Assembly (NCBI GenBank): GCA_905178155.1
Contig: CAJINV010000043.1
Span: 19,055 to 62,859, forward strand
Reading direction: 5' to 3'
Length of the DNA: 43,805 nucleotides
DNA from: Amoebophrya sp. A120
Taxonomy: Eukaryota; Protista; Dinoflagellata
The translations under genes and the position numbers were made by a program. A model generated the notes under the pieces. It saw only the letters and a list, made by a program, of their open reading frames with translations, did no database searches and was not told the DNA's origin. Of this stretch, positions 13,001-35,400 are shown one piece after another (the stretch's first letter is position 1; the number at the start of each line of letters is the position of its first letter).

Positions 13001-16000
13001 GGTCTGATTCACGCTGAATCCGCATGAAAAACTGGCTTTCTTACTACTTTCAAGAAGCGGAGCCACGGCTACGAGCACGTTAGGAATACGGATTTAGCAT
13101 AAGCAACTGGAAAAACTAGACTGGAGATGATGAATCTGTAATGCGTATTTGTGGAATTCGAAGTAGTCTTAGATGGTGTTCGAATTTGATTTCGGTATGC
13201 TTGCGTTTGAAAAATAACCTCTCCATTTCGAAACTAGATCCCACAATTGGTGGAGAGCCTGGGCATAGTTCGACTCAGATGCAGCGCATACCTTTACCGT
13301 TTTAGCTAGATACCCTACCCCTATGGCCTCGGAGAACCGAAAGAAGAAAGACGAATACGCGCAAGAAGGAGAAACAGCACCGCGGAAGGAAAAACGACTA
13401 CGACATGGAGCGAGCTGCATGACAAGCAGTGAGTAAAAGCCTCAGCTTTTTTAGTAACAGCTACTGGAGACGAAGACCTGCTTGACTGGGTGTGAAGAAC
13501 GCGCGCTAGATTGATAGGACGCAACAAACAATGTAGAGGACGGGACTAAGTACGACGCGAAGCTTTGGACGGAGTACAACCGCGCAAAGAATGTGGCTTG
13601 CGAGATGCTGAAAAAAGACACACTGGAAATCGACAAGACCAGTCCCAGAACCGGAAACCGCCTTCGTACGTTTTAGACCACGGGGAAGATTTGTTTTTAG
13701 ACCGCTGGATATATTTGTTTAACGGGACCTCAGTCGCGCTATAAAGTTCGCGGGAACTAGTTCGGCAAAACGACGCGGCTGGGGTACGTTCCAAGATTTG
13801 TTTACGGATTCGGGTTTTATTTTGACAACGGGATACGATTTACGATTTTTATTTACGGATGCGGGTTTTACGGTTAAGCGATGGCAGTGATGATTTTCGA
13901 TTTGTTAACGAGCAGCAGAACACGATCGAGATTTGAAGGCGCGGAAAATTCCGGCAACAGTAAAACAAGAACAACGGGGCACAGCTACAGAAGACGTCGA
14001 AGGGTTGCTTGCTACTTTGCTTAGCCCACTAACGAACCGGGAGCGACTCAACAAGACGGACCACTGTAGGCTGCCTACCAGTTCACAGATTTGTAAGCGA
14101 TGAGAAGACTCGGCGTTGTGTTTTTGCAGGCGATCACGGGTGCGCTGGCAGCGTTTTCAATTTCGAACGCAATAGACAGAGGCGCTTGCGCGCAGTAGTA
14201 GTTTTCCAGGGTTTGTTTCGAACAGTGCGGACAGATGAAGCAAGACCTCCTCCTCTCGCGGCAGCATGAGGACCTGGCTGGGGAAACCACAGATAGCAGT
14301 AGACCGCGTCTCGATCGTTCTCTTGTTTCCGACGTGATAGGGGTTTGCTCCTGGCGCAGTAGTAATAGCGCAGCGACATTAGTGGCTGTCCAAGATTTGC
14401 TTTTCGCCACGCACAGCAAGCGAGACACGAAGTAGTGCGCACCAGTAAACTCCGTTCTATTTCCGGCCCAGTTTCAGAAGCAGTTCGTAGACCTCGGCAA
14501 AGCAGTCACGTCCAAGATTGCAGTTTTTCATCCTACAGAAACCGACGCACGCGGTACAGAACCGGCAGAGCAGCAATAGAAGCAGCAGTAGTAACTAAAA
14601 GAGGGAGACTTTTGTAGAGGCGAGGACACTGAATTGAAGAGAAGACTTTCTTTAGGCTTTCGCAGTTCAAGCCTGCGATAGAATGGCGCCCAGCAGGCAC
14701 CAAGGTTGTACGATGAAGAACAAGGCACCAGACTCAAGACCCCGACCCTCCCTTATTTGTGTTCGCAGCACCGGTAGAAGACGATCAAGATTTTGTGTTC
14801 GAAGTTCACGATGAGAAGATGAAGAAGTTTCAGTCAGGGGGCGTGTAGTCGTGTAGCGACTTGGCTAGTGACTGCAACTTCTTCCGGATGGTGTTCTCGA
14901 TGTGATTCAAGATTCCGATGCAGTACGGGCTCCGTTATCGACTTTCAGTAGCTAGCTGACCTACCGGGATTCAAGATTTTGATTTTGGGTTCGGGATCCT
15001 GACTTGTGTTCGCGGTTTCAAGCTTTAATGCTATCGGGCTCCAGGAATAACTAGCTACCGAGGACGGGCGTTTTCGATTTGTGTTCGGGATGAAGCAGGA
15101 ACACTAGATGATGGTGGTGATGAAGATTTGATATCGGGCTTCGGGATTTTAGGCACTAGTAGATCTTGGTGAAAAGCAGGCAGGCTAGCGTAGAACACTC
15201 GGGCAGAGGTGCGAAAACACCGGGAGAACAACAAGAAGAAAACCCGGGACAGCACTAGAACACGGGCACAGACTACGAACGCAAAGCAGCAACAGAAAAG
15301 CAAGAGCAGAAACCAGGACGCAGCGAAGAGAATAGCAGGAAAGACCACCGACACGAACACGGAAGACCAGGAACAGGAACACGGACAAGCAGACAGACGG
15401 GGAACGGAGAAGACGCGAATGCAGAAAAGAGTACGGGGGCGAAGGACGACTTCGATTCTAGCGAGGTGTAGCAGACAGAGACGATTTCTAATTTTGACGC
15501 GGGACCAAAGAAGAACGTTTGGAACACAGGACCCGGAGTAGCAGTGCAGGTTTTAGGAGAAGTAGAGACGGAGACTAACTCTGAGGGCCAGCAGTAGTAA
15601 TGACGAAGTGCGGAGCAATGGTTTTCGGAAAGTAGCAGCGTAGCAGTAACAGTTACGGCCTCAGGGTTTTTACATTTCACGGATGGGGGCGCATACAAGA
15701 TTTTGGAGCACGGGAATGACGACAAGCCGAAGAACATGCGGAGTTTGCAGATACCGGCACAGCAGATCGTGGCTTCGGTCCAGCGCAGTGGCAGCGCGAC
15801 GTTTTGGATGAAGACGACGACCTTCGTATGGCGTTAGGGGGCAGTGCCACCTGCCGATGCTGGGAAGATTTGTTTTCAACCGACGGCAGTTTCAATTTCG
15901 TCTATGATCCGACGCGCCGAAGCAGATGTTCCCGACGACCAGCAGATAGGTTTCTGCACGACTTTGCCACTTCCCCGATGAAAAAATTGCTTCTGTACCG

Positions 16001-19000
16001 CGACCGCCTTGGAAGTGTTGGCGAAGACTCCGCACGATTTCAATTCTAAGCCCACCTGACGACCACGGGCGACGACTGCATCCTTCGCAACGACTTTTTT
16101 GTGCACACCGACCGACATAAGCTTGTTTTCCAGATTTGAAGATGAACTTGCAGAACGAACGGGATTCCGGTTTGGAAATTTGTCATGCAGTTTACGCTGG
16201 GGGCGCCGAAGATTTGTTTCTGTTCACGACAAAAGATCACGACTCGACGAACCACTTTGGAATAGCAGAGCGCCCGACGCTGATACGATGCGGAAGAAGC
16301 GTTTGATTTTACCACGGACCTGGAATTTGTGATGCAGATTTTCTGTGCAAGAATTCGCTTCCGGACTACACGACACGGAGTTGCTTCTGGACACTCAAGA
16401 ACCGACGGAAGTGCGAATTTGTCATGCTGGACATCGAGAAACTTGGGACTACTTGACGGAGACCTTTTGCTTGTGCGACTACGACGATGTGGATTTGTAT
16501 TGCTGATTTCGGACGACATGCTTTTGGTTGCGACGAGATTCTGCGGTCCGAGATTGAGACACCGCTGCAGATTTGAGTATGGGATTCTTCAATTGGTGCT
16601 TGCATTACGACACTGGACTTGCCGACGACATTACGATGCTGACTTTGGATTTACGATGAGAAGAGCACGATGCTGGGATGGGATAAGAGGACGCGGCGAT
16701 GAGGACTGGAAGATGAAGCGACTGTGGAAAATTGTTTATGGATTTATGCTATACAGATTTGGGCTTACGACTTAGAACTTCTTGTAGGATTTCGACCATC
16801 AGTTTCTGTTTCGAGCCTTTGTAAGATTTGCGTTTTAGATTTTGATTATGAGAAAAAGCGTTGGGGGCGGTTTGTGTAAATGAAAACTGGTTTTAAACGC
16901 TGTTTCTCATAGATCAAAATAGAAAAAATGAAGAGGATGATAAGAAAAAGCCACGAAAGCGATCAAGCGAGAAAAAGGGCCACAATACAAGGAAAAGCAA
17001 GCAAATTCTTGCCACGATCGGAAGAAAAAGGAAAGGGAAAAGAGAAGAAGAGAAAAGCAAAGAAATTAGGTCTGATTCACGCTGAATCCGCATGAAAAAC
17101 TGGCTTTCTTACTACTTTCAAGAAGCGGAGCCACGGCTACGAGCACGTTAGGAATACGGATTTAGCATAAGCAACTGGAAAAACTAGACTGGAGATGATG
17201 AATCTGTAATGCGTATTTGTGGAATTCGAAGTAGTCTTAGATGGTGTTCGAATTTGATTTCGGTATGCTTGCGTTTGAAAAATAACCTCTCCATTTCGAA
17301 ACTAGATCCCACAAAATCCCCATCTTGACTCTGGTGTGGGTACGTTTTTACTCAGGATACCTATAACAACTACTACAACTAGTTTTTTTCTGCCGCGTGC
17401 AATGCTTTTCCAGTGCATAGAAACGCCTGCGGGAATTAAAAGCGAAAAAGCAGAAACATCAGAAGATGCGGGATACTGCAGACGCACTAGCCTGGAAACC
17501 CGAGAAGGTAAGAATTGCGGAGTATCAAATGCAAATATGTCTGGGTATGGAAGATTCCGAGATTTGTGATGCAGTTTATCCAAGCTCAACCCAGTCTGGA
17601 ATGCAGGGTCTAGCGTCACAAGATCTACTGCAGCCCCTTGAGCTTGATGATGCCTGTTCTGCATCACAAATGCCCTCTCAGCATGGCCAGAAATGGGCAC
17701 CTTTTGCAAGTCACGCAACGGCACAGATTTTTGTACGATCCGCAACATGCATCACAAGTTCACATCCTTCCAGACCCAAACATATTTGCAATGCATACGG
17801 AGCACGCGGAAGCAACCCAGCGAGGGAAGTCCGATAAAGAAACTTACGGCGGCGAAGGGGTATCGCAAGAAAAAACTGCTACTTCATTGTGAGCTTGCAA
17901 TGCGGATTTTGTATCGCAATTGTTTCTGGCAAAAACTTCAGGAGTGTTTGTCTTTCTAAATATGCATAGAAAATGCATTTTTAGTTGTGTTTTCCCCTAG
18001 AGGAAATGCTCGCATGGCACACTTTCTATTGTGATGTAGAGCTGCGCGCTTGTGATGCAATAAAACTTGCGAAATCAATAAACAAAATCATCACAGTGAC
18101 ACAGTTTTTTCGCCGGATAATGGGGTTTGCGCGATGAATTCCCCACCACGGCTATCCTGAGTAAAAACGTACCCACACCAGAGTTGTAATGCAGATTTGC
18201 AAAGACAGGAAGACTCGCAATGCGCATCCCTTTGAGAGCCATTTCCAATCGTGTTTTGGAATTTGTGATGCTGTGAACAGGATGAGCAGCTGGATTTGTG
18301 ACGCGGCTGCACTTGCTAACCTGCACTACACTGCAAAGCTCAACTTGTCATGCGTGACTCACAAAACTCCTAGGTTTGTGTTGCAAAATCCTCATCCTAA
18401 CTCTGGTGTGGGTACGTTTTTACTCAGGATAACGGCAGGAACCCGCGTTGTTCCAACAGAGAACAACACGGAAGCACCGGAACAACAGAACGTACCCGCG
18501 CAAAACGACTCGTGGAAAGAAACGTGCACGAGAATCGAAAAGGAACTTCTCCAGGAGCTGGGCGTACACCACGGGAAGCGACAGCTAGTAGACGTATCAA
18601 GATTCATATCGCAAGAAAAAAGTGTTAGAGTTACACACTGTGTTGCAGGCCAAGCAAGACAGACAAGCTCTGTCATGCCGGATATGCGTAGGAGCCTCGT
18701 CTTATAGCCTTTTCCCGTAGGATTTCTGCATCACAAGTTTTCTCTCTCATGCTGAGAAATTTGTGTTGCTAAATTCGCTACAAATGTGTAACTGTAAGAA
18801 AACTTTTTTCGTGGGATAATGCATGATAAAAGCCGCGGTAGAAAGACTGATCAAGCTATCCTGAGAAGCAAAAACGTCTCCAAGCCATAGTCAAGATGGG
18901 AAATAACGTGCTAGACAAATCAACAAGCTTTGGTACTTGTTGCGCATGACAGGTTTGCCCTTTTAGTATGATCGATGTGTTTCGTTCGTCTAGTAGCATT

Positions 19001-19519
19001 ACAGGTCTAGCGTATTGTGCTGATTAGAGCATTGCAAATTTTTCCAGAACACAGCTATGAAATGCTTCTCATAGGGTTCCGCATGACAAACGTTTTGAGC
19101 ATGCAGATTGCTATTGGGTGAGGACGTGGCTTTTACACAGGATACAAGCGACACGAGAAAGAAGGAAACGCCGACCGCGCAGAAGAGGTCCGGCTATGGA
19201 AAATCAAATGGGAAACGACAGGTGGAGATAAGTTTTATCCTGTGCAAAAGTATCGTGGTCTAATATTAACAATAATGCATGATGACTCTGTTTTCTTGAC
19301 AAGCCTGAATCTCGTGCATCCGCATGGTAGTACATACGAAAGAACTTCATTTTCCGCTTTGGTGGAGAATGAATTTGTCATGCAATTTGTACAACTAGTC
19401 TGAAGATGCTTTTGCAATGCATAAGCAAGCCGGAGATGCTCCTTCGCGCTAGCCGGGATTTCGGACTAGATGCTAATGCGGTGAGAAGTGACTCGAAAGT
19501 TTCCATATTGGTTTTCTGA
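1029..19519 (+). CDS. Gene 1: large multi-exon hypothetical low-complexity protein (S/T/A/E/K/Q-rich), ~30 non-canonical introns plus some GT-AG introns; 3' end approximate
   Basis: ATG 1029 (MMSNGGAAGG). ORF fragments 1586, 2203, 2589, 3380, 6675, 8789, 9915, 12239, 17466, 18189 join in frame at the junctions tested. Not all junctions resolved; could be more than one gene. Confidence 0.7.
1110..1364. mobile_element. Introner family D
   Basis: TATGGGATAGTTCTCAAACGTTAC ... GTAAACTTTGAGAATCGCATA; DR CTGTT/CTATT; join gives AAS-IAGRSAANK. Confidence 0.75.
1475..1636 (+). other. Canonical GT-AG intron (phase 0)
   Basis: GTAAGG donor, TTCAG acceptor; join gives VESDG-VGEDEW. Confidence 0.65.
1685..1883. 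mobile_element. Introner, family B-like (diverged)
   Basis: TATGCTCTGCAAAAATATCG ... CGGTATTTTTGCACAGAATA; DR AAGAG/AAGAC. Confidence 0.7.
1923..2201. mobile_element. Introner (diverged)
   Basis: TATCCTGTGCAAGAAAAG ... CTTTTTACGCAGGATG; DR TACGC/CATGC; join gives FHT-RALYAQRR. Confidence 0.6.
2379..2594. mobile_element. Introner family E
   Basis: TATCGTGGGAAAAAAGTGTTACAGTTACAC ... GTGTAACTGTAACACTTTTTTCCTGTGATA; perfect DR CAAAA; join gives YLQ-KHQRLL. Confidence 0.9.
3034..3315. mobile_element. Introner family A
   Basis: TATCAACTGCAAGTATGTCTGGGTCTGGA ... TCCAGACCAAGACACTTTTGCGGTTGATA; perfect DR TACGG; joins ORFs 2589 and 3380 in frame. Confidence 0.9.
3917..4237. mobile_element. Introner family F (diverged ends)
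   Basis: CTCCCCGTACTAAAA ... TTTTCAGTATGGGGAG inverted pair; interior resembles 23847-24157; DR unclear. Confidence 0.7.
4442..4657. mobile_element. Introner family A-like (diverged)
   Basis: ATTTGGGTCAGGAAG ... CTTCCCAGACCCAGACCTGTTTGCAATGCATA; DR CGAGA/CGAAG. Confidence 0.55.
4974..5238. mobile_element. Introner family D
   Basis: TATGACGTCCTCAAACG..CTCAACTGTTACATG ... CATGTAACAGTTGAAAACGTAAAGTTTGAGAGCTCCATA; DR poor. Confidence 0.7.
5816..6086. mobile_element. Introner family A
   Basis: TACCAAATGCAAGTATGTCTGGGTCT ... AGACCCAGACATATTCGTATATGCATA; DR poor. Confidence 0.65.
6461..6686 (+). other. Canonical GT-AG intron (phase 0)
   Basis: GAG|GTATTG ... TTCCAG|GCC; join gives NRKIRSE-ANSRKPSS. 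Confidence 0.65.
7603..7754. mobile_element. Introner family B
   Basis: TATCATGTGCAAAAGTATCGTACTCG ... GATACTCTTGCACTGCATA. Confidence 0.7.
8316..8484. mobile_element. Introner family B-like
   Basis: TATGCATTGCGAAA ... TTTTGCAATGCATA; DR CCCAG/CGCAG. Confidence 0.7.
8560..8712. mobile_element. Introner family B (reverse orientation)
   Basis: TATGCAATGCAAAAGCATCGTAC ... GTGCGATACTTTTGCACAGGATA; DR GGGCT/AGGCT; join gives DVEG-YEDENADE. Confidence 0.85.
9051..9319. mobile_element. Introner family A body with B-like outer termini
   Basis: TATGAACCGCAAATATGTCTGGCCCTGGAAG ... CTTCCAGACCGAGATACTTTTGCAGTTCATA; DR ACGTT/ATGCT; frame restored. Confidence 0.8.
9361..9503. mobile_element. Introner family B
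   Basis: TATCCTTTGCAAAAGTATCG ... CGATGCTTTTGCAGTTCATA; perfect DR CCCCG; join gives SRTP-ASPKRR. Confidence 0.9.
9649..9909. mobile_element. Introner family A-type TIR
   Basis: TATCAAGTGC..ATGTCTGGGTCT ... AGACCCAGATGTATTTGCAGCGCATA; perfect DR GGGCG; join gives NWA-VPVGAV. Confidence 0.85.
9960..10176 (+). repeat. Coding tandem repeat (~28 aa x ~2.5; N(F/V)xGGA..SSxxxN)
   Basis: Repeated NFGGGASTSSSNSGNF / NVRGGAGAPSSNSGNL / NFRGGANAFSSRGNNF in ORF 9915. Confidence 0.75.
10427..10758. mobile_element. Introner family F
   Basis: TATCGTAAGGAAAAATGATCCCCCCTCCCC ... GGGGAGGGGGGATTTTCCCTTACGATA; perfect DR GAGAG; join gives RTE-RYREKMS. Confidence 0.9.
10834..11096. mobile_element. Introner family D
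   Basis: TATAAACTGCTGAGGTGTTACAATCTC ... AGATTGTAACGCTTGAGCAGGTCATA; DR TACAA/TAGAA. Confidence 0.75.
11254..11369. mobile_element. Short introner-like element
   Basis: TATGCACAATAAAAAGACCCAACATC ... GATGCTGGGTTTGGCCCTTTTTTTGTGGATA; DR TCTTG/ACTTC. Confidence 0.55.
11432..11698. mobile_element. Introner family A-type TIR
   Basis: TATCAAATGCAAATATGTCTGGGTC ... GACCCAGACATTTTTGCAGATGATA; DR ACGCA/AGGCA. Confidence 0.85.
11756..11990. mobile_element. Introner family D
   Basis: TATGGCGCTCTCAG..CATTCTCAACTGTTACATGA ... TCATGTAACAGCTGAGAATGTAACGTTTGAGAACGCCATA; perfect DR GCGCC. Confidence 0.9.
12103..12250. mobile_element. Introner family B
   Basis: TATCCTGTGCTGAAGTATCGTACTCGTAT ... ATACGAGTACGATACTTTTGCAGTTCATA; DR CCCGC/CCCGT. 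Confidence 0.9.
12805..13245 (+). repeat. 5' LTR
   Basis: TGTGTAAATG...GATCCCACA; appears identical to 16873-17313 by eye. Confidence 0.95.
13248..13266 (+). promoter_or_regulatory. Primer binding site, probably tRNA-Ala
   Basis: TGGTGGAGAGCCTGGGCAT 2 bp after the LTR; reverse complement ATGCCCAGGCTCTCCACCA fits tRNA positions 58-76 with A58, C61, U70, A73. Confidence 0.8.
15650..15910 (+). pseudogene. Possible degenerate reverse transcriptase remnant
   Basis: VTASGFLHF (cf. LD..SGF.QI), RMALGGSATC (cf. RMPFGL..AP.TF) and FVYD (cf. YxDD) appear in the correct order; match is weak. Confidence 0.35.
16850..16872 (+). promoter_or_regulatory. Polypurine tract
   Basis: GAGAAAAAGCGTTGGGGGCGGTT immediately before the 3' LTR. 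Confidence 0.65.
16873..17313 (+). repeat. 3' LTR
   Basis: Direct repeat of 12805-13245. Confidence 0.95.
17523..17797. mobile_element. Introner family A-type TIR
   Basis: TATCAAATGCAAATATGTCTGGGTATGGAAG ... CTTCCAGACCCAAACATATTTGCAATGCATA; perfect DR CGGAG; join gives RIAE-HAEATQ. Confidence 0.9.
17861..18119. mobile_element. Introner family E-like (diverged)
   Basis: TATCGCAAGAAAAAACTG ... CAGTTTTTTCGCCGGATA; DR AGGGG/ATGGG. Confidence 0.65.
18153..18431. mobile_element. Introner family C
   Basis: Perfect TIR TATCCTGAGTAAAAACGTACCCACACCAGAGTT; perfect DR ACGGC; join gives PTT-AGTRVV. Confidence 0.95.
18607..18818. mobile_element. Introner family E
   Basis: TATCGCAAGAAAAAAGTGTTAGAGTTACACA ... 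TGTGTAACTGTAAG..CTTTTTTCGTGGGATA; DR ATTCA/ATGCA. Confidence 0.8.
18857..19144. mobile_element. Introner family C-like
   Basis: TATCCTGAGAAGCAAAAACGTC ... GACGTGGCTTTTACACAGGATA; perfect DR CAAGC. Confidence 0.8.
19236..19423. mobile_element. Introner family B-like
   Basis: TATCCTGTGCAAAAGTATC ... GATGCTTTTGCAATGCATA; DR poor. Confidence 0.7.
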
Positions 19520-21067
19520 AAGTTTTAGAACTAGGATCGGGGTCGTCTTCATAGCATACACAGAACAATCGTAAATTGTACAAAAATAGCGGATAATTTA
19601 TAGAAGAAGTGTTACTAGAATCAGATTCAGAGAAAATATTTCAACTCGAAGATAAAAAAGTACTACAGTACAGCTACACGGTAAATTCATTCACATCTAC
19701 TTGAAAAATTTCGAATTGATGTTGTATCTAAAAGGCCGTCGTGCACAGAAACAGTGGACAGTACAGATTTGGATAGAAATGAAGAGTTTCAAGCTACCGA
19801 TGAGCATCGCTCACGCAATAGAAAAATGCACTGAATAAATTTGAATCGACTCAAAAAATATGTATTCTAAAGGAGCCATCTCGTACGCCAACAGTAACAG
19901 AGTGCATAGTTGTACATAGAAGTAAAAAATGCAGAAAATGTACAAAGAAAACCGAAATAGGAAAGAATGACACCAAAGACAAAATTACCGTATTACAATG
20001 GATGTAGATGCAAAACGAAAAACTAAAGCGAAACAATAGTGTCTCATAGATAAACACCGAGTGCTAGGTGAAAATATCACGGAGTAGAGGACATTCTTGC
20101 AAAATTGAAGTAATTGTAACTGGAAACTGCTCTGGAGTAAATGTAACTGTAGAAGCGTTGTAATAGCAGACCACACTACGACTTGGAAAAGGGAATGCAA
20201 AAATCATGGGCATGAAGCTCCACGTAGGAAAACTGTCACGGTCGGCTCGACTGTAAAGCGGCCGTGGTCAACTACTTACCTTGTGCTAGCAAAATGGAAA
20301 AATCCCTTTGGCCACAGAAGTACGAAAACTCGGTTTTTTTTTGTGAGGGCCAAGACGAGGCACACTACACTTTTCCACGTTCTGTCACCCATTTTTCGGT
20401 ATCAGTACCTTTTTGTGTTGCGTTCAAATAACTTGTCGTCTTATGGTTGTGTAGTTGTGTCTGTATGGGGAAAGTGCAGAAGGTCGGTATTTTTTTTGTG
20501 AAGACCAAGAGTAAGTAGAGTACAGCCTGCGCCCCGTCACAAATTCGGTCTTTTTTTTTTGTGCTGCGTGGGAGAGAGTTGTAGTTTGTGTGTCATCGTG
20601 TTTTTTTTGCAGCGAGTCGATCGAGTTGGAAAGAGGTAGTTTTTTTTTGTTGATTTACTTCGAATTCCCACACATGTACAAACGGGTCCCCGGGTGCAGG
20701 ACGTAGATAAATGCAAATTCACCTTTTTCCCTAGACCAGGACGAGGGACCGTGTGATGATCTACCAATACGTTGCAAAAGTAAGTTTCTTTGGAAGTAGT
20801 TGATGTACAAAGGTAGCCGCAGGCCTATACACCAAGAGTACTCTCAATTGATTTTCTCCTTGTTTTTTTTTGAAACAGAAAGACCGCAGCGAAGGGAGAG
20901 GTAGAGGACTGCAAAACGATGCGTTGAAAAACTCCTCTCTTCGTTTTCAAGTTCCTGCAAGAACCGCTAAAGAAAGCCGCTTTTTTTCGTCGAGGTCCAA
21001 AAGTAAAAAGGAAGAAACAAGCCGCAATTTTGCCCAGTGGAAAGGTGAAGTGCAACCGATAGTTGTG

Positions 21068-24000
21068 ATGGCCGCACAAAAGGACAAAGGTAATAAAACG
21101 CCGCAGGGCGGCGGCGACCTCGAAGAATCCTTCTTTACCGAGGACGAAGATTCATATGGGAGGAAAAAAAGTTCTAGGATCTTTCGAGGAGGATTATTTT
21201 GCGTTAAATGCAATAGACTACGCAGAAGTCGCAGACGCAGCAGAATTGGCAAACGCAAATTGGTCATGCTGCATTTTTGAACTGATGTTTTTGTCAAAAT
21301 TTTGACTCATCAGCAAAATTTCCCCTATATTTCGTCCTGTAAACTTTTTTTTCTCGTCCACAACCCTGTCCATATCGACCTCACTGACTTGAACAGCACC
21401 GCCTACAACAAGGTCGTGAGCAAGATCCAAGACCAGTACGAAATCGTGAAGGTACAAGTTGTTTAAAAATGCCTGTCTTTCTACACACGCATGAAGCTCA
21501 TGTCAAACCTAAACAAGCATGACAAATTTACAAATTCTTCACCAGGCAAATAATCATAAACAGGACGGCAACGCGTCTGCGGGGTCGAGTACGAGACCGC
21601 CGGCACCGGTAAAGAGAATTACGGTCAGTGCAAGGATTACAGTTCAGGTCCGTGAAAAGCCTGGCGGCACGGTGAAGAAGAACAATTTATTGTCAAAGAA
21701 CAAACCGGCACTACCCGTGACCAAGGGTAACGACAAGAATAAGAAGAACGCAGCTGCCGGTGGTGACAAGGAGAAGCAGAAAGGCAAGTCGAAAAACCTG
21801 CGCACGACGTCTTCCAGAAAACGGATTAAGGTAGGCAAAAGCAACCAGATGAAACTCGATAAGAAGGCCGCAGCGAAGAAGGAACAGGAGCTGCAAAAAC
21901 GACAGGTGGATGCGGTGTTAGGCCAGCTTAAGCACTTCACTGTATCCTGTGCAAAAGTATCGTACTCGTACTGCAATCATGCATTACAAACCTCTTTGTT
22001 GACGTTAAGTCAAATCCGTATTACAAATTTTATTTCTCTTGCTGAGGAAATTTGTAATGCAATTATACAAGTATCGGATAGGATTAGGAATAGGATACTT
22101 TTGCAGTGCATACACTGAGCAGAACGGCAAGAACACGGAGATAACCGACGAGATGGAGGAAGAGTTCAGAGGCGCTTTGGGGATATCAAATGTAAAAATG
22201 TCTGGGTCTCCTGGAAGATTACCAGGTTTGTCATGCATATTTTGAATGACCCATGATGTCTGTGATGCATGCCCTAGCATCACAGACTATTAAAGGACTT
22301 TGCGACGCCTCTACCGCTTGAGAAATGCCCTCTCCGCGTAGCACAGACCGGAGTTCTCTTCCTTGTCATGCAATACAAATTTTGTCAGAATCCAGAGGCA
22401 GCATTACAAGTTTAGAACCTCGTTCCAGACCCAGACATTTTTACATTTGATTGGGGATGATGCTGTGCTACATGGACGCCATCGTCACCGGAAACGGCTA
22501 TGGAATTCCCAAATCGGTTACCTTCTCAACCGTTACAATGAACTTGTCATGCAAAACTACCTTGAGCCGACAGACGTTGAAGCTACTTCGCATGACAGAT
22601 CTCCGAAGGGTGCTAAACACCGTTTAGATCTTTTCCAAAAGATGCGAGATTACCCCTTTCCCTGCCGCGGCTTTTGCATCACTGATTTATGATGTACTAC
22701 GGTTGAAAATGTATCGACGCTTGAGAACTCCATACAAACAATGCAAAAGATCTGGCTGACGTGAGAAACGAGCTGCGCGACGAGACGATGAAATTTCACA
22801 ACTTGCTGAAAGCAGTGGGGTATCAAATGTAAAAATGTCTGGGTCTGGAAATTTCAATTTGTGATGCTGAAATGTGCATAACAAAAACGCTCCCTCATGC
22901 AGCAGGAGAGCATAAAGTTTGCAGAACGTTTCCTCATACGCATTCCGCATGAGAAAGAGAAACTGCGTTTTTGTATGACAAGGGAGGCTGCGACTTTTGT
23001 GGGTCATGCAATACAGATCTCACAGGGATGCAAGACCAGCATTACAAGTTCCAACTTTATTCCAGACCCAGACATTTTTGCACTAGATATGGGGCCCCGA
23101 AACAGTGTCGACCGGAGGAAATGGGCTTGTCATTCCCTATGGCTTGCAAAAATGTCTGGGTCGGGAAGATTCTAAACTTGTGATGCTGTCGCTGGATTCT
23201 AAAAAAATTTGTATTGCATGACCAGCAAGAAGACTCCAGTTCGTGCTACCCGGAGAGGGCGTTTCTCATGCGGTGGATGCATCACAAAGTCCTCTAAAAA
23301 TATGTGATGCTAGGGCAGGCATCACAGACATCATGGGTCATTCAAATTGTGCATGAGTGATAAAGCTGGCAATCTTCCCGACCTAGATATTTTTGCAGTT
23401 GATATTCCCTCGATGCCCTCGAAGCAGCGAGCGACGTGCTTCAGGGGTGGAAGAGGACCTGCTTCAACCCTCTCAAGGAGACACTGGATGATCCAGTCGT
23501 GCAGTCCGTTTTCGTACCAAGTGCAAAAATGTCTGGGTCTGGAAGAATGCAAATTCTGATGCTGCATTTGGACTCCAAGAAAATCTGTATTGCATGAGTA
23601 CTAGCGAAGGGAAAGCAATTTTTGCGACGCTCTTGAGGAGGCATTTTTCATGCGGAATAGGCATCAAGAAGCGGTCAAAAAATCTGTGTTGCTAAGGTAT
23701 GCATCACAGACATGATCATGGCTCATGCTAAACGTGCATTTGACAAGTGTAAGAATCTACTTCCTGACCCAGACATTTTTACATTTGATATTTCGACGCT
23801 TATGAAAAGAGGAAGACCTCCTCGTCTATGAAGATGACGGAGGCGATATCACAAAGAAAAATCCCCCCTCCCCATACCAAAACGGAGATTTGTGGAGCAT
23901 GATTTGCTACCACAAATCATGTTGTCATGCTAGAAGGCAAAAGATGCGGACTGTAGTGCTGGCTGGCGTGGGAAAACCTTGCATGTTCAGCATCACAGGA

Positions 24001-27000
24001 GGCCACTTTAAGTGGGAAACGGCATGACAAATCGCCTACAATTTTGGCCGCAACTGCGTCTGTTGGCCTTCTAGCATTACGAGTCGATTTGTGTACGCAA
24101 ATCCAGCATCACAAATGTCCTTTTCAATATGGGGAGGGGGGATTTTTCCTCACAATAGGCGATGAAAGAAGATTTAACGCAAGCTGTGCGAAGGATGAGG
24201 AAGTATTTTCTCGACGCCGTGGAAAACTGGACGGACGAACACGAAACTTCCATTACCGAAACCCAGAATAAGCTAAAAAAGGCGTTACGCGATTTTCGCG
24301 ACGTGTGCCGCGCAATCAAGATTTCCGAGCGCGAGGTGCCTCCGCTGTGCGAGTCTGTTACCAAAGCGTGCACGCATTATCCTGTGCAAAAGTATCTGAT
24401 ACTCGTATTGCAATCATGCATTACAAATCTTCTGCTAAAGGTAAATCCCCATCACAAATTCCATTTTTCATGCTGAGGAAATTTGTAATGCATTTATACG
24501 ACTACGATACTTATGCAATGCATACGCCTGTGGTGATAGGGATATTCCGAACCCAGATCGACTGGAATATGGAGTATGGAGTTCTCAACCGTTACATTCT
24601 CAACTGCATTACATGAATTTGTCATGCGAAACTAGTACCATCATCATCCACAAGATCAAGCTGCTTCGCATGACAAATTTGCGAAGGCGGGCTAAACAGC
24701 ACCTAAAGCTGCGCGAGATTTTTAATGCAATTTTTGCACCCTGTCTTCCCCCTTTCGCTTTTATTGCCATTCTTGCATTACAGATTCATGTAACAGTTTT
24801 GAGAATGTAACGTTTGAGAACACCATAGGGAGAGCGCAGAATTTCGAGAGGAAGTGACACGGAAATATGAGGAGTTCCGCCAGGAGGCGGGATTGTCGGA
24901 GGAAAGTCGTTATAAACTGCAAAAGTATCCGATACTTGTGTAAATGCATTACAAATTTTCTTGGCATGAGAAATAAAATTTGTAATGCGGATTTAGCTTC
25001 AGAAAATGATTTGTAATGCATGATTGCAATACGAGTATCAGATACTTTTGCACAGGAGCGTCGTGCGAAAACCCCCGTGAACAACGAGCCGCAAGAAGCT
25101 GGTACTGCGGCGACCGTGAGCAACAAGAAAAAAGAACTCCACCCGGTCGTGCAGAGCGTGTTTGAAGCGAACAATGAGGATGGCAAAATGGAAATAACGC
25201 CGAAGAAGCAGGTAGAATTCGTGGAAGCTTTCGACCGGATTATATGCAAGAAGAAAACTGTGGAAGTGTAAATTTGTGTTGCAGAAGAGGATGCAAGACA
25301 CCAACACTTGTCATGCTGGACATGCATCAGAGGTTCTTCTCGTAAAGTGTTTGCACCGATACCAGCAATACACATGAGAGGTTTATTTCTCTGTCATGCA
25401 GGGCCGAGCAAATTTGTGATGCTGTTCCTCGAAGAAAGTTACACTTTTACATATTTTTTTTCCTGGATAGATCAACCGATACTTTCACAAAATCGTAGAA
25501 GGGAGCCCGGAAGATACAGATCTCGATCGAAACAAGGACTTGTTGCGGGAAGCGAAAATCGACTTTGACGCCCTGTTGGAGGAGCATATCAAATGCAAAA
25601 ATGTCTGGGTCTGGAAGGATGTAACTTGTGATCATGCTATCTCTGGATTCTAAAAAAATCTGTATTGCATGACCAGCAAGAGGGGTCGGGTTTGTCCTAC
25701 GTGGAGAGGGCATTTCTCATGCGGTAGAGGTATCGCAAAGCCCTCCAAAAATCAGTGATGCTACGGCATGCATCACAGACATCATGGCTCATGCAACATA
25801 TGCATGACAGATCTAGAAATCTTCCAGACCCAGACACTTTTGCATTTGATAACGCACGATATCGAGCAACCGTCCGAAAAGTGGCTAAAAGCTGAAAGAG
25901 CGTGTGATGATGTGCTGAAGGGGGAAAAGAGGACCTGCTTTGACTCGGAAGCCGAGCCGGACTCTGACGTCTCACAGGAAGGGCGCGCGGTGGAGAACGA
26001 AACGAACTTGCAGAATACGGTATGAACGACGTAGAATTATTGTTCCTTCCGGTATCATATTGGTCGAAAAAACGGTATTTTTGTGTTCTACAAACCATGA
26101 TCCGTGAAAAATCTACATCTCCATTTACGACGCAGCTGTCGTTGCATTTAGATGAACCGAAAACGAGAAATCATAATCAAAGTCCATACCAAAATCGTTT
26201 CCCTCAGGTCCAGGTGCGTGCGGAGTCCCCCGTGGTCGCCCCCCGCTCGGCTGCGCAATTACTCCTTGCCCCTGCTGGCAGTTCCAGGTCACCGTGTGCG
26301 GATTCGTTCGAGGCCTTGAGACAGCAGGACCAGGAAGATAGTAACGGCGAAGAAAGAAGTGGCGCCCAGGACGGGGAAGTACAAGGGCAACGTTTTGAAG
26401 AAGGTCGTGCTCCCGCGCAGAACGACGAGTTGGAGATGAACGAAGGACAAGACCACGGTGACGCCGCACAAGGAAAAAAGGCAACCAAGATGAAGAAGGC
26501 AAAAAAGATGAAAAAGGCGAAGGAAAATAACGAGAACAACACACCCGCCGCTCTGCTACAGGGCAACGCAACGTCCTCTAGCACGATGGCCGGTCAGGGT
26601 GCGGTGGCGGCGCGCGGAAAGTCATCGTCATCGTCCATTTTTAGTGCGGTACTGAATTCTGGTTCCATGTTGAAGGATTTCAAAAATGATCTCGTTCTCA
26701 ACATTTTTGCAGTACTTACAGTCTGCAATTCATCACGGTAATTACTTCGATGTTTAGAAATGTCACAGAAACAGAACAGAACTCTTATTTTCTGGACCGG
26801 AATTCAATCCAATTCGTATAATTACACCAATATCAGGTATCGCACGGCAAGAATCTCATGGCGACCGTCCCTTCGAGCAGCAGTGTCGAACAGAAAATAT
26901 GAGAATGCACAATCCCCCACGTCGTCCCCCGGATCTGTAATGCATAAACAGAAATATTAGGAGCATCGGCAACAGAAAGAGTACAGTATGCGCATTACAG

Positions 27001-28764
27001 ATTCACACAGGAGTATAGTGCTGGTTGAGCTCCCGAGCGACCCCTGTCATGCAACACTCACAACAAAAAAACGGTAAATCTGCCTGTTGTCATTGACAAA
27101 CGAGGAAGCGGGGGGGCGGAGGTTTGTACACTCTCATAGAGGAAAAACAACATCGTGAACACCACCTTCAGTGCCGCGAATACTACCACGCCGCACTCGA
27201 CCGATGCCACCATGACCACTGCTCTGTACGGCGGTGGACAACTACAAGGAACTACGAAACAAAAGAGGTCCCAGATGAAGAAGCTTACCGCCCCTTGTAC
27301 CGCAAAGGCTCCGTCGAAAAAGATGAACCCGTCCACCTCTGTCACCAACGGATCAACTACGAAGTTGTCTGCAGCATCTTCTACCAACAGCGGTACTACA
27401 AAGGGCAAAACGCCTGTGCGGAAATCTGGTGGGAAGCAGCCGGCTGCTGCTAGCTTCTTAGTCGCACCAGCACCGACGAAAAGCTACGGATCATCTTCCT
27501 GGGACACGCCGAAAGTGATATGAGAGTGTACAACTCCCCCTTCCCCTCATTTGTCATGCAAAACCCCAAATGCAAATCCAAAACCAAATGCTCCACTGTG
27601 GCACTGTTTGCACCACAGATTCCTGTCGTGACACTGTTTGCATCACAGATTCCGGATGAATGATCCCAAACAGTACTACAGTAGGCGCATGAGTTTGTCA
27701 TGCACAGGCTTGACATGTGGTGCTGTTTGTATTGCTGTTCATGCAATACAAATGAGGGGGAGGGGGGGTTGTGCACTCTCATAAAGGGTTCAGCCAATAT
27801 ACAAACCACCGAGAAGAACTGGCGGTAGCAGCGGTGCATCGGAGGACCTGCCGGTGGTATAGTAAACCAATTTTTGTCAATCATGTATGCACAGAGCGTA
27901 TAGATGATGAAATTGAGATCTTCGTCATTTATTTCCCATGAGCAGACGGTGTGTCCTCTGTAGGAACAGTGGCTGAATATGAATATGAAATTTATTCTTT
28001 CAAGAAATAAAATCGAATCAGCATTCCTATCCGTCGCACACCTCCGGTAGCCTCGTCGAGGGTGAGCGGTCGCGAATATCAAACGCAAAAGTGTTTCAGT
28101 CCTCTGGAAAGCCGGGGCTTGTAATGCTGGTCGCACATTTCGCACATTCCCGTGAAAAAAAAATCCACAGTTCAGCATCACAACTTTGCGTTTCCAGAGG
28201 ACCCAAACACATTTGCAATGCATAGCGGAAGATCCGGTACCAGGATAAGAGTCCGCATATGAACTGCAAAAGTATCGTACTCGAATAAATGCATTACAAA
28301 TTTTCTCAGCATGAGAAAAAAAATTTGTATTATGCTGATTTGCCTTGACAAAGAAATTTGTAATGCAAGACCAGCATTTATACGAGTGCGATACTTTTGC
28401 ACGGGATACCGCAGTTGTCCTTTGGTACGAACACCAAACACGGTATCCTGTGCAAAAACGTCCCCACACCAGAGTCAAGCTGGGAAATCTGCTAGACAAA
28501 TCTGTCAGCTTTTGCTGCTGCGCATGACAAGTTTGGCCTCGCAGTGTAATCCTGTTTAGCTTGTTCAGCAGCATCACAGATGTAGCATATCATGCTGATT
28601 CTAGCATCACAAATCCCACAACACGACTAGAGACTGCTTCTCATGGGTCTCCGCATGAGAAGCATTTTCAGCATGCAGATTTGCATTACAACTCTGGTGT
28701 GGGGACGTTGTTACAACTGATACAGGGAGCGACCTCCTCGTCTAGCCGCGCGCCGTGGTCGTAA
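21068..28764 (+). CDS. Gene 2: multi-exon hypothetical protein (K-rich, low complexity), ~19 non-canonical introns; ends approximate
   Basis: ATG 21068 (MAAQKDKG). In-frame joins include KHFT-EQNGK and QSVF-DAYEKRKTSSSMKMTEA-MKEDLTQ. Region 26000-28100 only partly resolved. Confidence 0.65.
21155..21329. mobile_element. Introner-like element (diverged)
   Basis: TATGGGAGGAAAAA ... AAATTTCCCCTATA; DR ATTCA/TTTCG. Confidence 0.45.
21943..22112. mobile_element. Introner family B
   Basis: TATCCTGTGCAAAAGTATC ... GATACTTTTGCAGTGCATA; perfect DR CACTG; frame restored. Confidence 0.9.
22184..22452. mobile_element. Introner family A
   Basis: TATCAAATGTAAAAATGTCTGGGTCT ... AGACCCAGACATTTTTACATTTGATT; perfect DR GGGGA. 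Confidence 0.9.
22499..22734. mobile_element. Introner family D
   Basis: TATGGAATTCCCAA..TCTCAACCGT ... ACGGTTGAAAATGT..TTGAGAACTCCATA; DR poor. Confidence 0.7.
22821..23089. mobile_element. Introner family A
   Basis: TATCAAATGTAAAAATGTCTGGGTCTGGAA ... TTCCAGACCCAGACATTTTTGCACTAGATA; perfect DR TGGGG. Confidence 0.9.
23138..23404. mobile_element. Introner family A
   Basis: TATGGCTTGCAAAAATGTCTGGGTCGGGAAGATT ... AATCTTCCCGACCTAGATATTTTTGCAGTTGATA; perfect DR TTCCC. Confidence 0.9.
23515..23790. mobile_element. Introner family A
   Basis: TACCAAGTGCAAAAATGTCTGGGTCTGGAAG ... CTTCCTGACCCAGACATTTTTACATTTGATA; perfect DR TTTCG; frame restored. Confidence 0.9.
23847..24157. mobile_element. Introner family F
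   Basis: TATCACAAAGAAAAATCCCCCCTCCCCATA ... TATGGGGAGGGGGGATTTTTCCTCACAATA; perfect DR GGCGA; frame restored. Confidence 0.9.
24378..24524. mobile_element. Introner family B
   Basis: TATCCTGTGCAAAAGTATC ... GATACTTATGCAATGCATA; DR CGCAT/CGCCT. Confidence 0.85.
24575..24827. mobile_element. Introner family D
   Basis: TATGGAGTTCTCAACCGTTACATTCTCAA ... TTGAGAATGTAACGTTTGAGAACACCATA; DR TGGAG/GGGAG. Confidence 0.9.
24911..25059. mobile_element. Introner family B (inverted sibling of 24378-24524)
   Basis: TATAAACTGCAAAAGTATC ... GATACTTTTGCACAGGAGC; perfect DR GTCGT. Confidence 0.85.
25243..25469. mobile_element. Introner family E-like
   Basis: TATGCAAGAAGAAAA..AAGTGTAA ... TTACACTTT..TTTTTTCCTGGATA; DR GATTA/GATCA. 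Confidence 0.65.
25587..25851. mobile_element. Introner family A
   Basis: TATCAAATGCAAAAATGTCTGGGTCTGGAAG ... CTTCCAGACCCAGACACTTTTGCATTTGATA; DR GAGCA/ACGCA. Confidence 0.9.
26898..27138. mobile_element. Introner family G
   Basis: TATGAGAATGCACAATCCCCC ... GGAGGTTTGTACACTCTCATA. Confidence 0.7.
27519..27783. mobile_element. Introner family G
   Basis: TATGAGAGTGTACAACTCCCCCTTCCCCTCATTTGT ... ACAAATGAGGGGGAGGGGGGGTTGTGCACTCTCATA. Confidence 0.85.
28077..28224. mobile_element. Short introner, family A-type TIR
   Basis: TATCAAACGCAAAAGTGTTTCAGTCCTCTGGAAA ... TTTCCAGAGGACCCAAACACATTTGCAATGCATA; DR GCGAA/GCGGA. Confidence 0.8.
28258..28408. mobile_element. Introner family B (reverse orientation)
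   Basis: TATGAACTGCAAAAGTATCGTACTCG ... CGAGTGCGATACTTTTGCACGGGATA; perfect DR CCGCA. Confidence 0.9.
28444..28722. mobile_element. Introner family C
   Basis: TATCCTGTGCAAAAACGTCCCCACACCAGAGT ... ACTCTGGTGTGGGGACGTTGTTACAACTGATA; DR CACGG/CAGGG. Confidence 0.85.
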
Positions 28765-32499: not shown

Positions 32500-35400
32500 A
32501 TGGCAACATCCGGCTCATCTGCGCAAAGAACAACGGGAGTGAGCGACCAGCTTCCCTTCACTCACCCGGACAGCAGTGAGGGCCACGCGACAAACACCAA
32601 CGCTGCGGACGAGCCGTCCGTTGTTCCGCCGGAAGTAGGAGTCGACAGCGACCTGGAACAAGCAGAACAACGGGAGCTCGATCCTGCCGTATTTTCTAGC
32701 CGAAGCGCTGCTGCATTTCTCCCGACCCTGTTGCAGCACGACCAACCGGAAGGAAAATTAGAGGGTGTACCACGAGAGAAAGAATCCTCCAAGCTCGTCC
32801 AAGCGTCGTCCGCGATGGGCCGTAGGCTGTTGGAGCAGGACGAGAATCCGGCAAGAAGCAGTCCCTTCGCTTATTTTCCCACCAGTAGTGCTACTTCTAC
32901 GTCTACCCAAGTACAACAACACCACTCCCGTGCTGTCACCAGCCTGCAGCAAAGCGGTGGGGATCAGGAGGATGAGATATCAGTACCCCGCCTAGAAGTC
33001 GGTGAACAACAGGACAACTCTGGTGCTCCGTTGGTGCAGCTATGCATTGCAAAAGTAACGTACTAGTAGTAATTGCATTTATGCATTACAAATCTCTTTC
33101 TCAAGGTAAAACAGCATTACGAATTTGATTTGTAATGCTGGACTAATTTGTGATGCAATTTATACGTAGTACGATGCTTTTGCGTTGCATAGCAGCAGGA
33201 CCCTGACGGTAGTTACAGCTCACCGGCGCCGAAAGACGGGCGGAAAGACGGTGAAGAGTCGTCTTCTTCTCACGACCAGTCAATGCCCTGGTCGGCGTTT
33301 GTCGGGTCGGACGGCAAGCCTCTGTTTGGTCGTGATACGGCCGGTGACGAAGACCACGCTGCTGGACGAACTAGCTCTTCGTCGCCGATCGGAAACTACG
33401 ACCAGTACGTTCACACGCAGAAGCGGTACAACAATCATTTTTGCGGTGGGAGCGGGGAGCGGGTGGAACCGCGATCTGGATCACAGTCGCCGTCGCAGTA
33501 CACGTTATCAAATGCAAATATGTCACCTGGGTCTGGAAATATTGTGATGCTGTTTTTGCACGACACGAGAAGTTTGCGATGGACGCTTTACTAGCATCAC
33601 AAGTTTAGTAGAGAAGAGTCCCAATGCCTAATCCGCATTACAAATTCCCGTTCTCGGAGACAGAAAATGAGGCAGCTTTTGCTGCCTATGCATGAGAGAT
33701 TTGTGTGTGTTGTGAAATGCGCATGATCGATCACAAGTTTGCAATCTTCAAGAGGGTCGTCCAGGAGACATATTTGCAATGCATATCCGTACTACTCCGG
33801 TGATTCCCAACTTGCACCACGACAGGCAGCAGCAACTGCGGGAGCGGAAGATGCGGGGCAGTCCGTGGCCTTCGAAAATTACGATGTAGGACATGATATC
33901 AAATGCAAAAATGTCTGGGTCTGGAAGATTCCAAGAAACCTGTAATGCTGTTTCTGGATTCTGAAAAAATTCGTGTTGCATGACCAGCAAGAGGACTCCA
34001 GTTTGTGCTACGCGGCGAGGGCATTTCTCATGCGGCAGAGGCATCACAAAGCGCTCTAAAGATCCGTGATGCTACGGCATGCATCACAGACATCATCGGT
34101 CATGGAAAATATGCATGACAAGTCTAGAAACCTCCCAGACCCAAACATTTTTGCATTTGATACATGACGCCGGGGACGACGACAACACCCCCAGCAGCAC
34201 CTGCACAGCGCTCCACCTCCCGGACTACTGGACCTCGACTTACACCTATCAAATGCAAAAGTGTCTGGGTCTGGAAGAGTGCAGGAGTTTGTCATGCAAA
34301 TTTTGCATGACCCATGAGGTCTGTCGTGATGCATGCTGTAGCATGAGAGATTCAGCGAGGGCTTTCTGATGCTCATACCGCATGAGAAAAGCCCTCTCCG
34401 CGTAGCAAAAATTGCACCTCTGTTGCTGTTCATGCAATACAAATCTTTCATAGAATCCACAAGTGGCAACCTTCCAGACCCAGACATTTTTGCAATCCAG
34501 AACACCATCGACACGACAAAATTCGAACACGTCCGCTGGGAGATCTTCGCCGCGTTTGAATATGCTCTGCAAAAGTATCGCACTCATACTAATTGCGTTT
34601 CTGCATTACAAATCTTTTTATTAAGGGAAATCCGCATGACAAATTCCATTTCTCATGCTAAGGAAACTTGTATTGCAAGTTGTACTAGCTCTAGCACGAT
34701 GCTTTTGCATTGCATATTGAAAAGCACATGCTGAAATTCTGGTTTCTCATGCTGAAGCCGGACGTGAGGAACGCGAAAAAGTGGTCGGACCGGTACATCC
34801 CGACATCGGACATGATCACGCAAATCGTCAAGCACCACGTGGTATGAACTGCAAAAGTATCGTACTCGTAGTAATTGCACTCATGCAAGACAAATTTCAT
34901 TTTTGAGCTAAATCAGCATGACAAGTTCCGTTTGTCATGCTGAGGAAATTTGTGATGCGTTTATACGAGTACGGTACTTTTGCAATTCATAAGTCGAAGA
35001 ATTTTTCGCCCCGACCGCGGAATTCGGTATCATGTTGCAGGAACAGACCTTGGCGTTTTTGCAAGAGGGTAAGGAGGAGCTGTTTCGCCAAGAGCCGATG
35101 GGAAAGTCGATTTTTCCGAAATCAATCATCGGCAAACTGCTGCGAGTCCAGTTGGAACGGGTTTGGAAGGACAAGAACTACGATTTTTTCGCGCAGAAGC
35201 TGTTCAACAATGTGAATCTTTTTTGCGACAGCGAATTCGACTTCGAGGGCAACTTCTTCGGGGACGGTTTGTCAGGCGGAGTAGAGGACCGGAAAAACAG
35301 CACGACCACGACCTCTCTGACTTATGGAGTGCAAAAGTATCGTACTCGTATAAATGCATGACAAGTTTCCTCAGCATGACAAATAAAATTTGTAATGTGG

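What the first reader, a model, noticed from the sequence alone, without database searches (positions are those of the whole stretch)
24378..25059. The same introner appears to be removed in either orientation
Seen: 24378-24524 and 24911-25059 are reverse-complement siblings in one + strand gene. Family A (33897 vs 34247, 22184, 3034) and family B (9361, 12103, 21943 vs 8560, 28258) also occur both ways. TAT...ATA reads the same on both strands. Known: spliceosomal signals (donor, branch point, acceptor) are directional. Inference: recognition depends on a symmetric feature such as the terminal stem, not a linear polarised signal.
Basis: partly seen in the sequence, partly recalled or inferred. 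Interest (0 to 1): 0.8.

Follow-up and report, generated by a model that had tools for sequence, protein, structure and literature searches.

The report
Reversible transposon introns, fixed cut rule
In the algal parasite Amoebophrya, small mobile hairpin elements sit in genes facing either way and are missing from the transcript assemblies both ways, cut one base before TAT and four after ATA, likely because their mirrored ends show a rewired splicing machine the same signal in either direction; the elements themselves were already described.

Summary
Observation confirmed. 24378-24524 and 24911-25059 are reverse-complement siblings (86%) in one + strand gene; all listed A/B orientations hold. 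An exon matches an annotated Amoebophrya sp. A120 protein at 100%: these are the introners of Farhat 2021. Spliced contigs fit removal of all 17 gene-2 elements, both orientations, to the base (1182, 386, 61, 181 nt); DNA contigs keep them. In 251 elements from other loci no family has a significant orientation bias. Not found in my searches: one fixed geometry, N-TAT...ATA-NNNN, fits 11 of 11 RNA piece ends and 9 of 9 annotated introns; no G or AG is recruited from the host; TAT/ATA appear conserved after insertion. The inference is only partly supported: inverted repeats present the same linear signal both ways, either-orientation introners are published (Polarella), the cut is polar (1 vs 4 nt), 24911 ends AGC not ATA, and no strand-specific stem selection was found. 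The enzyme is open: rewired spliceosome about 50%, Euglena-like stem-guided cutter about 35%. The scan noted similar signal-free introns in other dinoflagellate DNA (unchecked).

The parts
24378..24524 (+). Family B introner (TAT...ATA, 147 nt), reference orientation; 5-nt target duplication CGCAT / CGCCT
24377..24528 (+). Intron as removed (element plus 1 nt before and 4 nt after, 152 nt)
   Evidence: X6 record 13 piece ends at 24376, fits register -1 or 0; lengths
24911..25059 (-). Family B introner in opposite orientation (149 nt); 3' end AGC instead of ATA; duplication GTCGT / GTCGT; shares a 2-nt insertion with 24378
24910..25063 (+). Intron as removed (154 nt); absent from X4 record 9; X6 records 13 and 14 both stop exactly at its duplication (fork: likely partial retention)
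21564..28764 (+). Host gene 2, validated part of CDS: 17 introner introns plus GT-AG introns 26020-26207, 26649-26836, 27857-28021; function unknown, no protein hit
21943..22112 (+). Family B introner, reference orientation
28258..28408 (-). Family B introner, opposite orientation, absent from X4 record 9 and X6 record 14 by length
22184..22452 (-). Family A introner, orientation opposite to 23138/23515/25587; ends ATT; absent from X4 and X6 contigs by length (386 nt)
23138..23404 (+). Family A introner
23515..23790 (+). Family A introner starting TAC
25587..25851 (+). Family A introner
32500..36029 (+). Host gene 3 = annotated Amoebophrya sp. A120 protein P0001 (577 aa, no Pfam hit); 9 introner introns
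33897..34162 (+). Family A introner
34247..34501 (-). Family A introner, opposite orientation, ends AGA
35323..35471 (-). Family B introner, opposite orientation; X4 record 12 piece ends at 35317 (register -1 or less)
35747..35932 (.). Introner with decayed duplication (GCATT / GCGAA); only register -1 gives the annotated protein
6690..19430 (+). Host gene 1, validated part: open for 1136 codons after removing 19 elements and the nested 5-kb insertion
8560..8712 (-). Family B introner, opposite orientation (no RNA laid here; ORF evidence only)
9361..9503 (+). Family B introner (ORF evidence only)
12103..12250 (+). Family B introner (ORF evidence only)
3034..3315 (-). Family A introner, orientation opposite to 33897

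Best explanation
These are the transposon-derived introns (introners) of Amoebophrya sp. A120, absent from transcript assemblies in either orientation with one fixed geometry, N-TAT...ATA-NNNN, likely because their mirrored ends give a rewired, U1-independent spliceosome the same end signals whichever way they land. SHOWN: 5-nt target duplications; both orientations inside + strand genes; removal of element plus exactly 5 nt, which restores the pre-insertion message; one register (1 nt before TAT, 4 nt after ATA) fits every informative junction; no G or AG is taken from the host site. INFERRED: the elements move as non-autonomous DNA transposons with a 5-nt staggered cut. The long hairpin likely brings the ends together. 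UAU at intron +2..+4 is likely read like the UAY of the local GUAY donors with +1 relaxed, and the 3' cut is likely measured 4 nt past AUA. Because 1+4 equals the duplication length, any coding site in either orientation would become a harmless intron. Recognition is symmetric in sequence but polar in the cut. The catalyst is not shown: rewired spliceosome about 50%, separate stem-guided cutter/ligase about 35%.
For: Removal: X4 record 9 has 1182, 61 and 181 letters between listed pieces and X6 record 13 has 386; the model gives exactly these. Keeping any one of 12 tested elements adds 2-24 stops; removing element+2 or +8 also opens the frame but misses the length. P0001 equals the model over 515 of 515 aa. 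Register: -1 is the only value compatible with all 11 RNA piece ends (24378, 26898, 34843 need >= -1; 27519, 35323 need <= -1) and with all 9 gene-3 introns (35747 only -1). Orientation in other loci: A 44:28, A2 27:14, B 14:20, D 6:15, E 11:10, C 3:4, F 5:2, none p<0.05. No host signals: intron +1 is G in 72 of 251 (flank G 32%), last two bases AG in 21 of 251 (flank 8.7%), both in 5 (6.0 expected). End triplets conserved after insertion: 5 of 264 TAT/ATA positions changed vs 43 mismatches in 220 duplication pairs (p 2e-5); 11 of 11 elements with >= 2 duplication mismatches keep TAT...ATA. The copy with the damaged end (24911, AGC) is the one gene-2 junction where listed X6 contigs break exactly at the duplication (n=1). 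For a spliceosome: the 4 GT-AG introns fixed by RNA lengths start GTAC/GTAT, TAC is the commonest tolerated 5' variant (3 of 55; 6 of 251), and Farhat et al. found 83 of 89 spliceosomal proteins and U2/U4/U5/U6 but no U1 in A120 (section 10).
Against: No junction-spanning reads were seen. Removal rests on contig lengths and left-aligned piece ends of two runs whose RNA status is a guess, and the 24376-26207 stretch holding 24911 is fixed by X4 alone. A spliceosome that accepts all 16 first/last base pairs is hard to square with known second-step chemistry (recalled). The 5'/3' arm asymmetry seen in the window (p 0.029) did not replicate on its own in 251 other elements (p 0.18; pooled 0.016). 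No conserved polar branch motif was found: the internal GCATNACA motif is nearly strand-symmetric (68:66 in the window, 353:408 in loci, p 0.05). Stem selection on the RNA strand was not detected (G-U 99 vs A-C 107; sense folds better in 27 of 55). A varying register per intron cannot be excluded, only that none demands it.
Confidence: 0.6

Rival explanations
1. A spliceosome-independent cutter and ligase recognises the paired ends, as proposed for Euglena nonconventional introns: a short inverted motif at fixed spacers from both junctions.
For: No terminal dinucleotide constraint; strong hairpins (positions 8-14 predicted paired in 40 of 55); arm covariation at positions 8-20 in families A, A2 and E (may be subfamily descent); Euglena code N3-CDG...CHG-N5-6 with tested spacer rules (PMC12501133 abstract, sections 7-8); U1 not found in A120.
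Against: No G-U over A-C excess and no sense-strand folding advantage; positions 4-7 unpaired in 101 of 136 family-B cells, no covariation in B or D; UAU-AUA helix predicted open in 24911 and 28258, yet both are absent from contigs; donor N-TAY matches local G-TAY.
Confidence: 0.35
2. The elements are cut out of DNA (like ciliate internal eliminated sequences), so orientation is irrelevant.
For: TA-bounded ends, symmetry and a short direct repeat fit a DNA transposase-type cut.
Against: DNA run X1: single-copy contigs (depth 41-47) run 24-28 nt into elements instead of breaking at the duplication, and records 2 and 8 hold whole elements (26898; 35539 and 35747) without gaps. The cut is polar with respect to the transcript. 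Only 15 of 1998 joints were shown, so a rare excised form or another life stage is not excluded.
Confidence: 0.04
3. Reverse-transcriptase template switching across hairpins flanked by direct repeats only mimics splicing.
For: Stable hairpins plus 5-nt direct repeats are the usual substrate (recalled).
Against: Genes are open only if all elements are removed; elements whose duplication has decayed (27519, 35747, 22499) are skipped at the same geometry; X4 record 9 lacks all 17.
Confidence: 0.03

Closest known systems
Introner elements / non-canonical introns of Amoebophrya sp. A120 (Farhat et al. 2021, PMC7789003; read: abstract, sections 10, 11, 12, 16, term passages, supplement legends)
   Same: Same organism (P0001 label); inverted repeats starting TAT + 7 nt + AAA; 3-5 nt direct repeats (5 bp in Fig. 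S19 legend); about 240 nt; hairpin; RNA-supported; MITE-like origin and an alternate splicing mechanism already proposed.
   Different: In the text I saw, 'orientation' refers only to genes; element orientation is not reported, and splice sites are called variable relative to the hairpin. Here one fixed -1/+4 register fits all informative junctions. Figures were not visible and may show more.
Either-orientation introners of Polarella glacialis and Aureococcus anophagefferens (bioRxiv 10.1101/2020.10.14.339549, passages; opposite-orientation pairs also allowed for in PMC9860276 methods)
   Same: DNA-transposon introns with target duplications that create introns in either orientation.
   Different: They need GT/GC/GA and AG from the element or the duplication and show an orientation bias in the simple two-way classes; here no host base is required and no significant bias was found.
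Nonconventional introns of Euglena (PMC12501133 abstract, sections 7, 8 and discussion passages; review PMC11282704 section 6)
   Same: No GT-AG; short inverted motif at fixed spacers, 3' spacer longer than 5'; MITE origin suggested; machinery unknown.
   Different: Motif CAG/CTG with spacers 3 and 5-6 and a purine starting the next exon, versus TAT/ATA with spacers 1 and 4 and no purine preference (148 of 251). Circular release was not testable here.
Non-canonical introns of Fritillaria borealis (via review PMC11282704 section 6; primary paper not read)
   Same: MITE-derived, TIR and TSD, removed despite non-GT-AG ends, by an evolved U2 spliceosome according to the review.
   Different: Preferred ends AG-AC / AG-AT; here first and last bases are free.

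Membership tests
Amoebophrya A120 introner elements (Farhat 2021) | Occurs in Amoebophrya sp. A120 genes | tested here: met
   Exon 34996-35319 is 100% identical to P0001, labelled Amoebophrya sp. A120; spliced model identical over 515 aa
Amoebophrya A120 introner elements (Farhat 2021) | Terminal inverted repeat starting TAT, then 7 variable nt, then >= 3 A | tested here: met
   Arm profiles, 44 window elements and 251 others
Amoebophrya A120 introner elements (Farhat 2021) | 3-5 nt direct repeat at the boundaries | tested here: met
   5-nt duplication in the window; exact in 207 of 251, where >= 4 of 5 was a detection condition
Amoebophrya A120 introner elements (Farhat 2021) | Repeated families | tested here: met
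Amoebophrya A120 introner elements (Farhat 2021) | Removed from mRNA with non-GT-AG ends | tested here: met
Canonical-site two-way introners (Polarella / Aureococcus type) | Donor GT/GC/GA and acceptor AG supplied by element or duplication | tested here: not met
   G at +1 in 72 of 251, AG end in 21 of 251, both at background
U2 spliceosomal introns | Lariat with 2'-5' branch; dependence on U2/U6 | not testable with these tools
   No lariat or inhibitor data
U2 spliceosomal introns | Polar branch-site motif near the 3' end | tested here: inconclusive
   GCATNACA nearly strand-symmetric; the A 7 nt from the 3' end is invariant in 55 of 55 window elements and 247 of 251 others, but it is also part of the TIR
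Euglena-type nonconventional introns | N3-CDG...CHG-N5-6 followed by a purine | tested here: not met
   Motif is TAT/ATA with spacers 1 and 4; first exon base purine in 148 of 251. Works alike, not a member
Euglena-type nonconventional introns | Released as full-length circles | not testable with these tools
   No suitable reads
Ciliate-type eliminated DNA (IES) | Absent from the expressed DNA | tested here: not met
   X1 DNA contigs retain the elements; one sample only
MITE / TIR DNA transposon | Cognate autonomous element and transposase | not tested
   No genome held; PMC12130899 passages report TIR-flanked A120 introners with Copia/Gypsy-like ORFs

The most novel reading that the evidence does not exclude
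Amoebophrya A120 has a second splicing code, N-UAU...AUA-NNNN, executed by a non-spliceosomal, hairpin-guided ruler whose two spacers (1+4) equal the transposon's 5-nt target duplication, so any insertion at any coding site in either direction is erased from the mRNA without a scar. It would be a convergent twin of the Euglena code (3+5, which would match an 8-nt duplication; my inference).
Probability: 0.3. Interest if true: 0.85.

Novelty: already known. Interest (0 to 1): 0.45.

Why it matters
How some 40,000 non-canonical introns of Amoebophrya A120 are removed has been open since 2021. The useful gain is a precise rule: a fixed 1-nt and 4-nt spacer around TAT/ATA, free first and last bases, no host signal. 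It explains why this family could invade genes so freely, would let ambiguous junctions be annotated uniformly, and turns the enzyme question into simple tests (lariat or circle, spacer and triplet swaps) like those done in Euglena.

Tried and rejected
No whole genome is held, so the genome-wide count was replaced by metagenome loci. One search listed no holder on record as RNA. The raw-read run X9 laid only 100 reads, all on element ends, and says nothing on this gene. Junction-level rows for 24378 and 24911 were not obtained; one search showed 15 of 1998 joints, nearly all from DNA repeats. Protein searches with exons of gene 2 and gene 1 found nothing (limit 2000 aa; weak evidence); P0001 has no Pfam hit. 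The idea that GCATNACA is a polar branch site was dropped as nearly strand-symmetric. The idea that the 5' and 3' arms decay differently was significant in the window but not in the independent set. The G-U/A-C and sense/antisense folding tests were null. The 5' part of gene 1 (1030-6690) could not be closed into a stop-free model (best 3 stops), so its 11 elements were left out of the 44-element counts and used only in the 55-element counts. Literature: 6 searches found no paper reporting element orientation or a fixed register for Amoebophrya introners; subscription papers (the journal version of Roy 2023, Huff 2016, Henriet 2019) and figures were not visible; PMC12621601 and PMC12005148 passages added only that other Amoebophrya strains use GT-AG and have U1.

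Full report
The observation. All listed family A and B orientations are correct, and families C, D, E and A2 also occur both ways. Each element is flanked by a 5-nt duplication. TAT...ATA is the consensus, but 4 of 44 ORF-validated elements deviate: 24911 ends AGC, 22184 ATT, 34247 AGA, and 23515 starts TAC.

What it is. An exon of the third gene matches one protein at 100%, labelled Amoebophrya sp. A120. Farhat et al. 2021 (PMC7789003; sections 10, 11, 12, 16 read) describe for this strain repeated non-canonical introns with inverted repeats starting TAT, seven variable bases and at least three A, 3-5 nt direct repeats and hairpins; 29,850 were counted. The window's arms have this profile. 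So the elements are known. In the text and supplement legends I saw, orientation is discussed only for genes, and splice sites are called variable relative to the hairpin.

Are both orientations removed? laid four runs on 20600-36400. X4 and X6 are contigs guessed to be RNA; they carry spliced records and little or no depth at 30613-32193. X4 record 9 has 1182 letters between 21937 and 26207, 61 between 26647 and 27143, and 181 between 27516 and 28726; X6 record 13 has 386 between 21937 and 24157. Removing each of the 17 elements plus 5 nt, and three GT-AG introns, gives exactly 1182, 61, 181 and 386. The joined 21564-26647 frame has 666 codons and no stop; keeping any one of those 12 elements adds 2-24 stops; removing element+2 or +8 also opens the frame but gives 1218 or 1146. 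This stretch holds B in both orientations (21943, 24378 vs 24911, 28258) and A in both (22184 vs 23138, 23515, 25587). Gene 3 with 9 elements removed equals P0001 over 515 of 515 residues. Gene 1 from 6690 is open for 1136 codons after the same operation (no RNA laid there). This is length evidence, not junction reads, and the part holding 24911 is fixed by X4 alone. The DNA run keeps the elements: single-copy contigs run 24-28 nt into them, and records 2 and 8 contain whole elements.

Orientation elsewhere. Their strain is unknown and no RNA was laid on them. A detector that ignored positions 1-3 and required 17 of 23 arm matches and 4 of 5 duplication matches recovered 38 of 55 window elements with no false call (circular) and found 334 unique elements. 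333 had flanks; 251 got a host-strand call at score >= 8 (223 of 242 calls agree within loci at score > 4); 228 of 251 were assigned to a window element. Counts: A 44:28, A2 27:14, B 14:20, D 6:15, E 11:10, C 3:4, F 5:2; the lowest p values are 0.06-0.08 (A2, A, D), so mild biases are possible but both ways are common.

Where is the cut? Where the two duplication copies differ, piece ends limit the register. Assuming the tool left-aligns joints (it did so at the GT-AG introns), 24378, 26898 and 34843 allow -1 or 0, 27519 allows -2 or -1, 35323 allows -5 to -1; only -1 fits all 11 ends. Against P0001, 35539 needs -1 or less and 35747 allows only -1 (the annotation's junctions may share RNA data with X4/X6, which I did not check). 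The intron is thus N-TAT...ATA-NNNN: one base of the upstream duplication and four of the downstream one. In 251 elements the first base is G in 72, the last two are AG in 21, both in 5 (6.0 expected), and the next exon starts with a purine in 148; all are at background. No host signal is recruited.

What is recognised? In the 44 window elements, taken without a duplication filter, duplications differ at 43 of 220 pairs but TAT/ATA at only 5 of 264 positions (p 2e-5, counting two sites per pair); all 11 elements with two or more duplication mismatches keep both triplets. This points to selection on the triplets after insertion. X6 records 13 and 14 end exactly at the two sides of the 24911 duplication, the pattern of a fork between a spliced and a retained form, at the copy whose ATA is AGC; X4 runs through it, and the other opposite-orientation B copy (28258) shows no break. 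That is one case. For the stem: both copies fold into long hairpins (z -5.8, -3.5); positions 8-20 are 88% Watson-Crick (2879 of 3263) and covary beyond shuffles in A, A2 and E but not B or D (descent not controlled). Against strong stem selection: G-U is not favoured over A-C (99 vs 107 in loci; 43 vs 52 in the window), the sense strand folds better in only 27 of 55, and positions 4-7 are paired in 590 of 1004 cells with no covariation. For polar reading: in 55 window elements the 5' TA and the 3' A at -3 never change while their partners do (0/4 vs 3/0, p 0.029), but the independent set gives only p 0.18 (pooled 0.016; one shifted call dropped). The four GT-AG introns fixed by RNA lengths begin GTAC or GTAT (21452, 26020, 26649, 27857), so element and canonical donors share +2 to +4 TAY.

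Inverted repeats place the same linear sequence at each end in either orientation, so two-way removal cannot separate stem from sequence. Two-way introners are published for Polarella and Aureococcus (passages). What is unusual here is that no GT or AG is needed at all, and the closest tested parallel is the Euglena code N3-CDG...CHG-N5-6. I commit to: sequence triplets at fixed spacers, juxtaposed by the hairpin, read by a rewired U1-less spliceosome (about 50%), with a separate stem-guided cutter close behind (about 35%). DNA excision and template switching are unlikely.

Verdict. Real, in a known system; two-way removal is supported but expected; the fixed -1/+4 rule and the absence of any host signal were not found in six searches, with figures and subscription papers unseen. 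The scan's own notes held nothing on this genome and four unchecked notes on other genomes. Interest 0.45.

Noticed in passing
window 12420-17419: A 5.0-kb nested insertion inside gene 1: outer TAT...ATA element, containing a family E introner (12569-17359), containing an LTR-like element with two identical 443-nt TG...CA repeats (12804-13246, 16872-17314) and no internal ORF over 186 aa. Removing the whole at the -1/+4 geometry keeps the frame open, so the rule may act over 5 kb (no RNA laid). A 90% copy of the LTR is in L017.
   Followed up: partly
all elements; window-wide: The motif GCAT(G/C/T)ACA occurs 134 times in 12.9 kb of elements of unrelated families, on both strands alike, 0 times in 10.4 kb of exon, and at lower density in GT-AG introns and the nested insertion; 12.3 per kb in the loci set. 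Possibly a transposase or chromatin-protein site shared by all families.
   Followed up: partly
element positions 4-7, loci L001 onward: The same few terminal heptamers (TATCAAA, TATGCAT, TATCCTG, TATGGAT, TATCAAC) recur at either end of unrelated families without covarying between the two ends of a copy, as if tips were exchanged between elements.
   Followed up: no
window 7314-7561 and 26649-26836: Two introns fit both codes at once: G-TAY...ATA-NCAG, i.e. GT-AG at the introner geometry. Such hybrids were not enriched over chance in the loci set (5 vs 6.0).
   Followed up: partly
window 24378 and 24911: The two copies share a 2-nt insertion near one end that six other B copies lack and lie 386 nt apart; one may be a local, inverted hop of the other.
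   Followed up: no
window 33895-33930, run X9: About 90 raw RNA reads of another sample carry a family A end joined to flanks foreign to this window: an expressed, unspliced family A copy at another locus or in a related strain.
   Followed up: no
window 43745-43805 and 1-300: Short tandem repeat of a 14-nt unit at the right end, and a duplicated ~130-nt GC-rich block at the left end.
   Followed up: no
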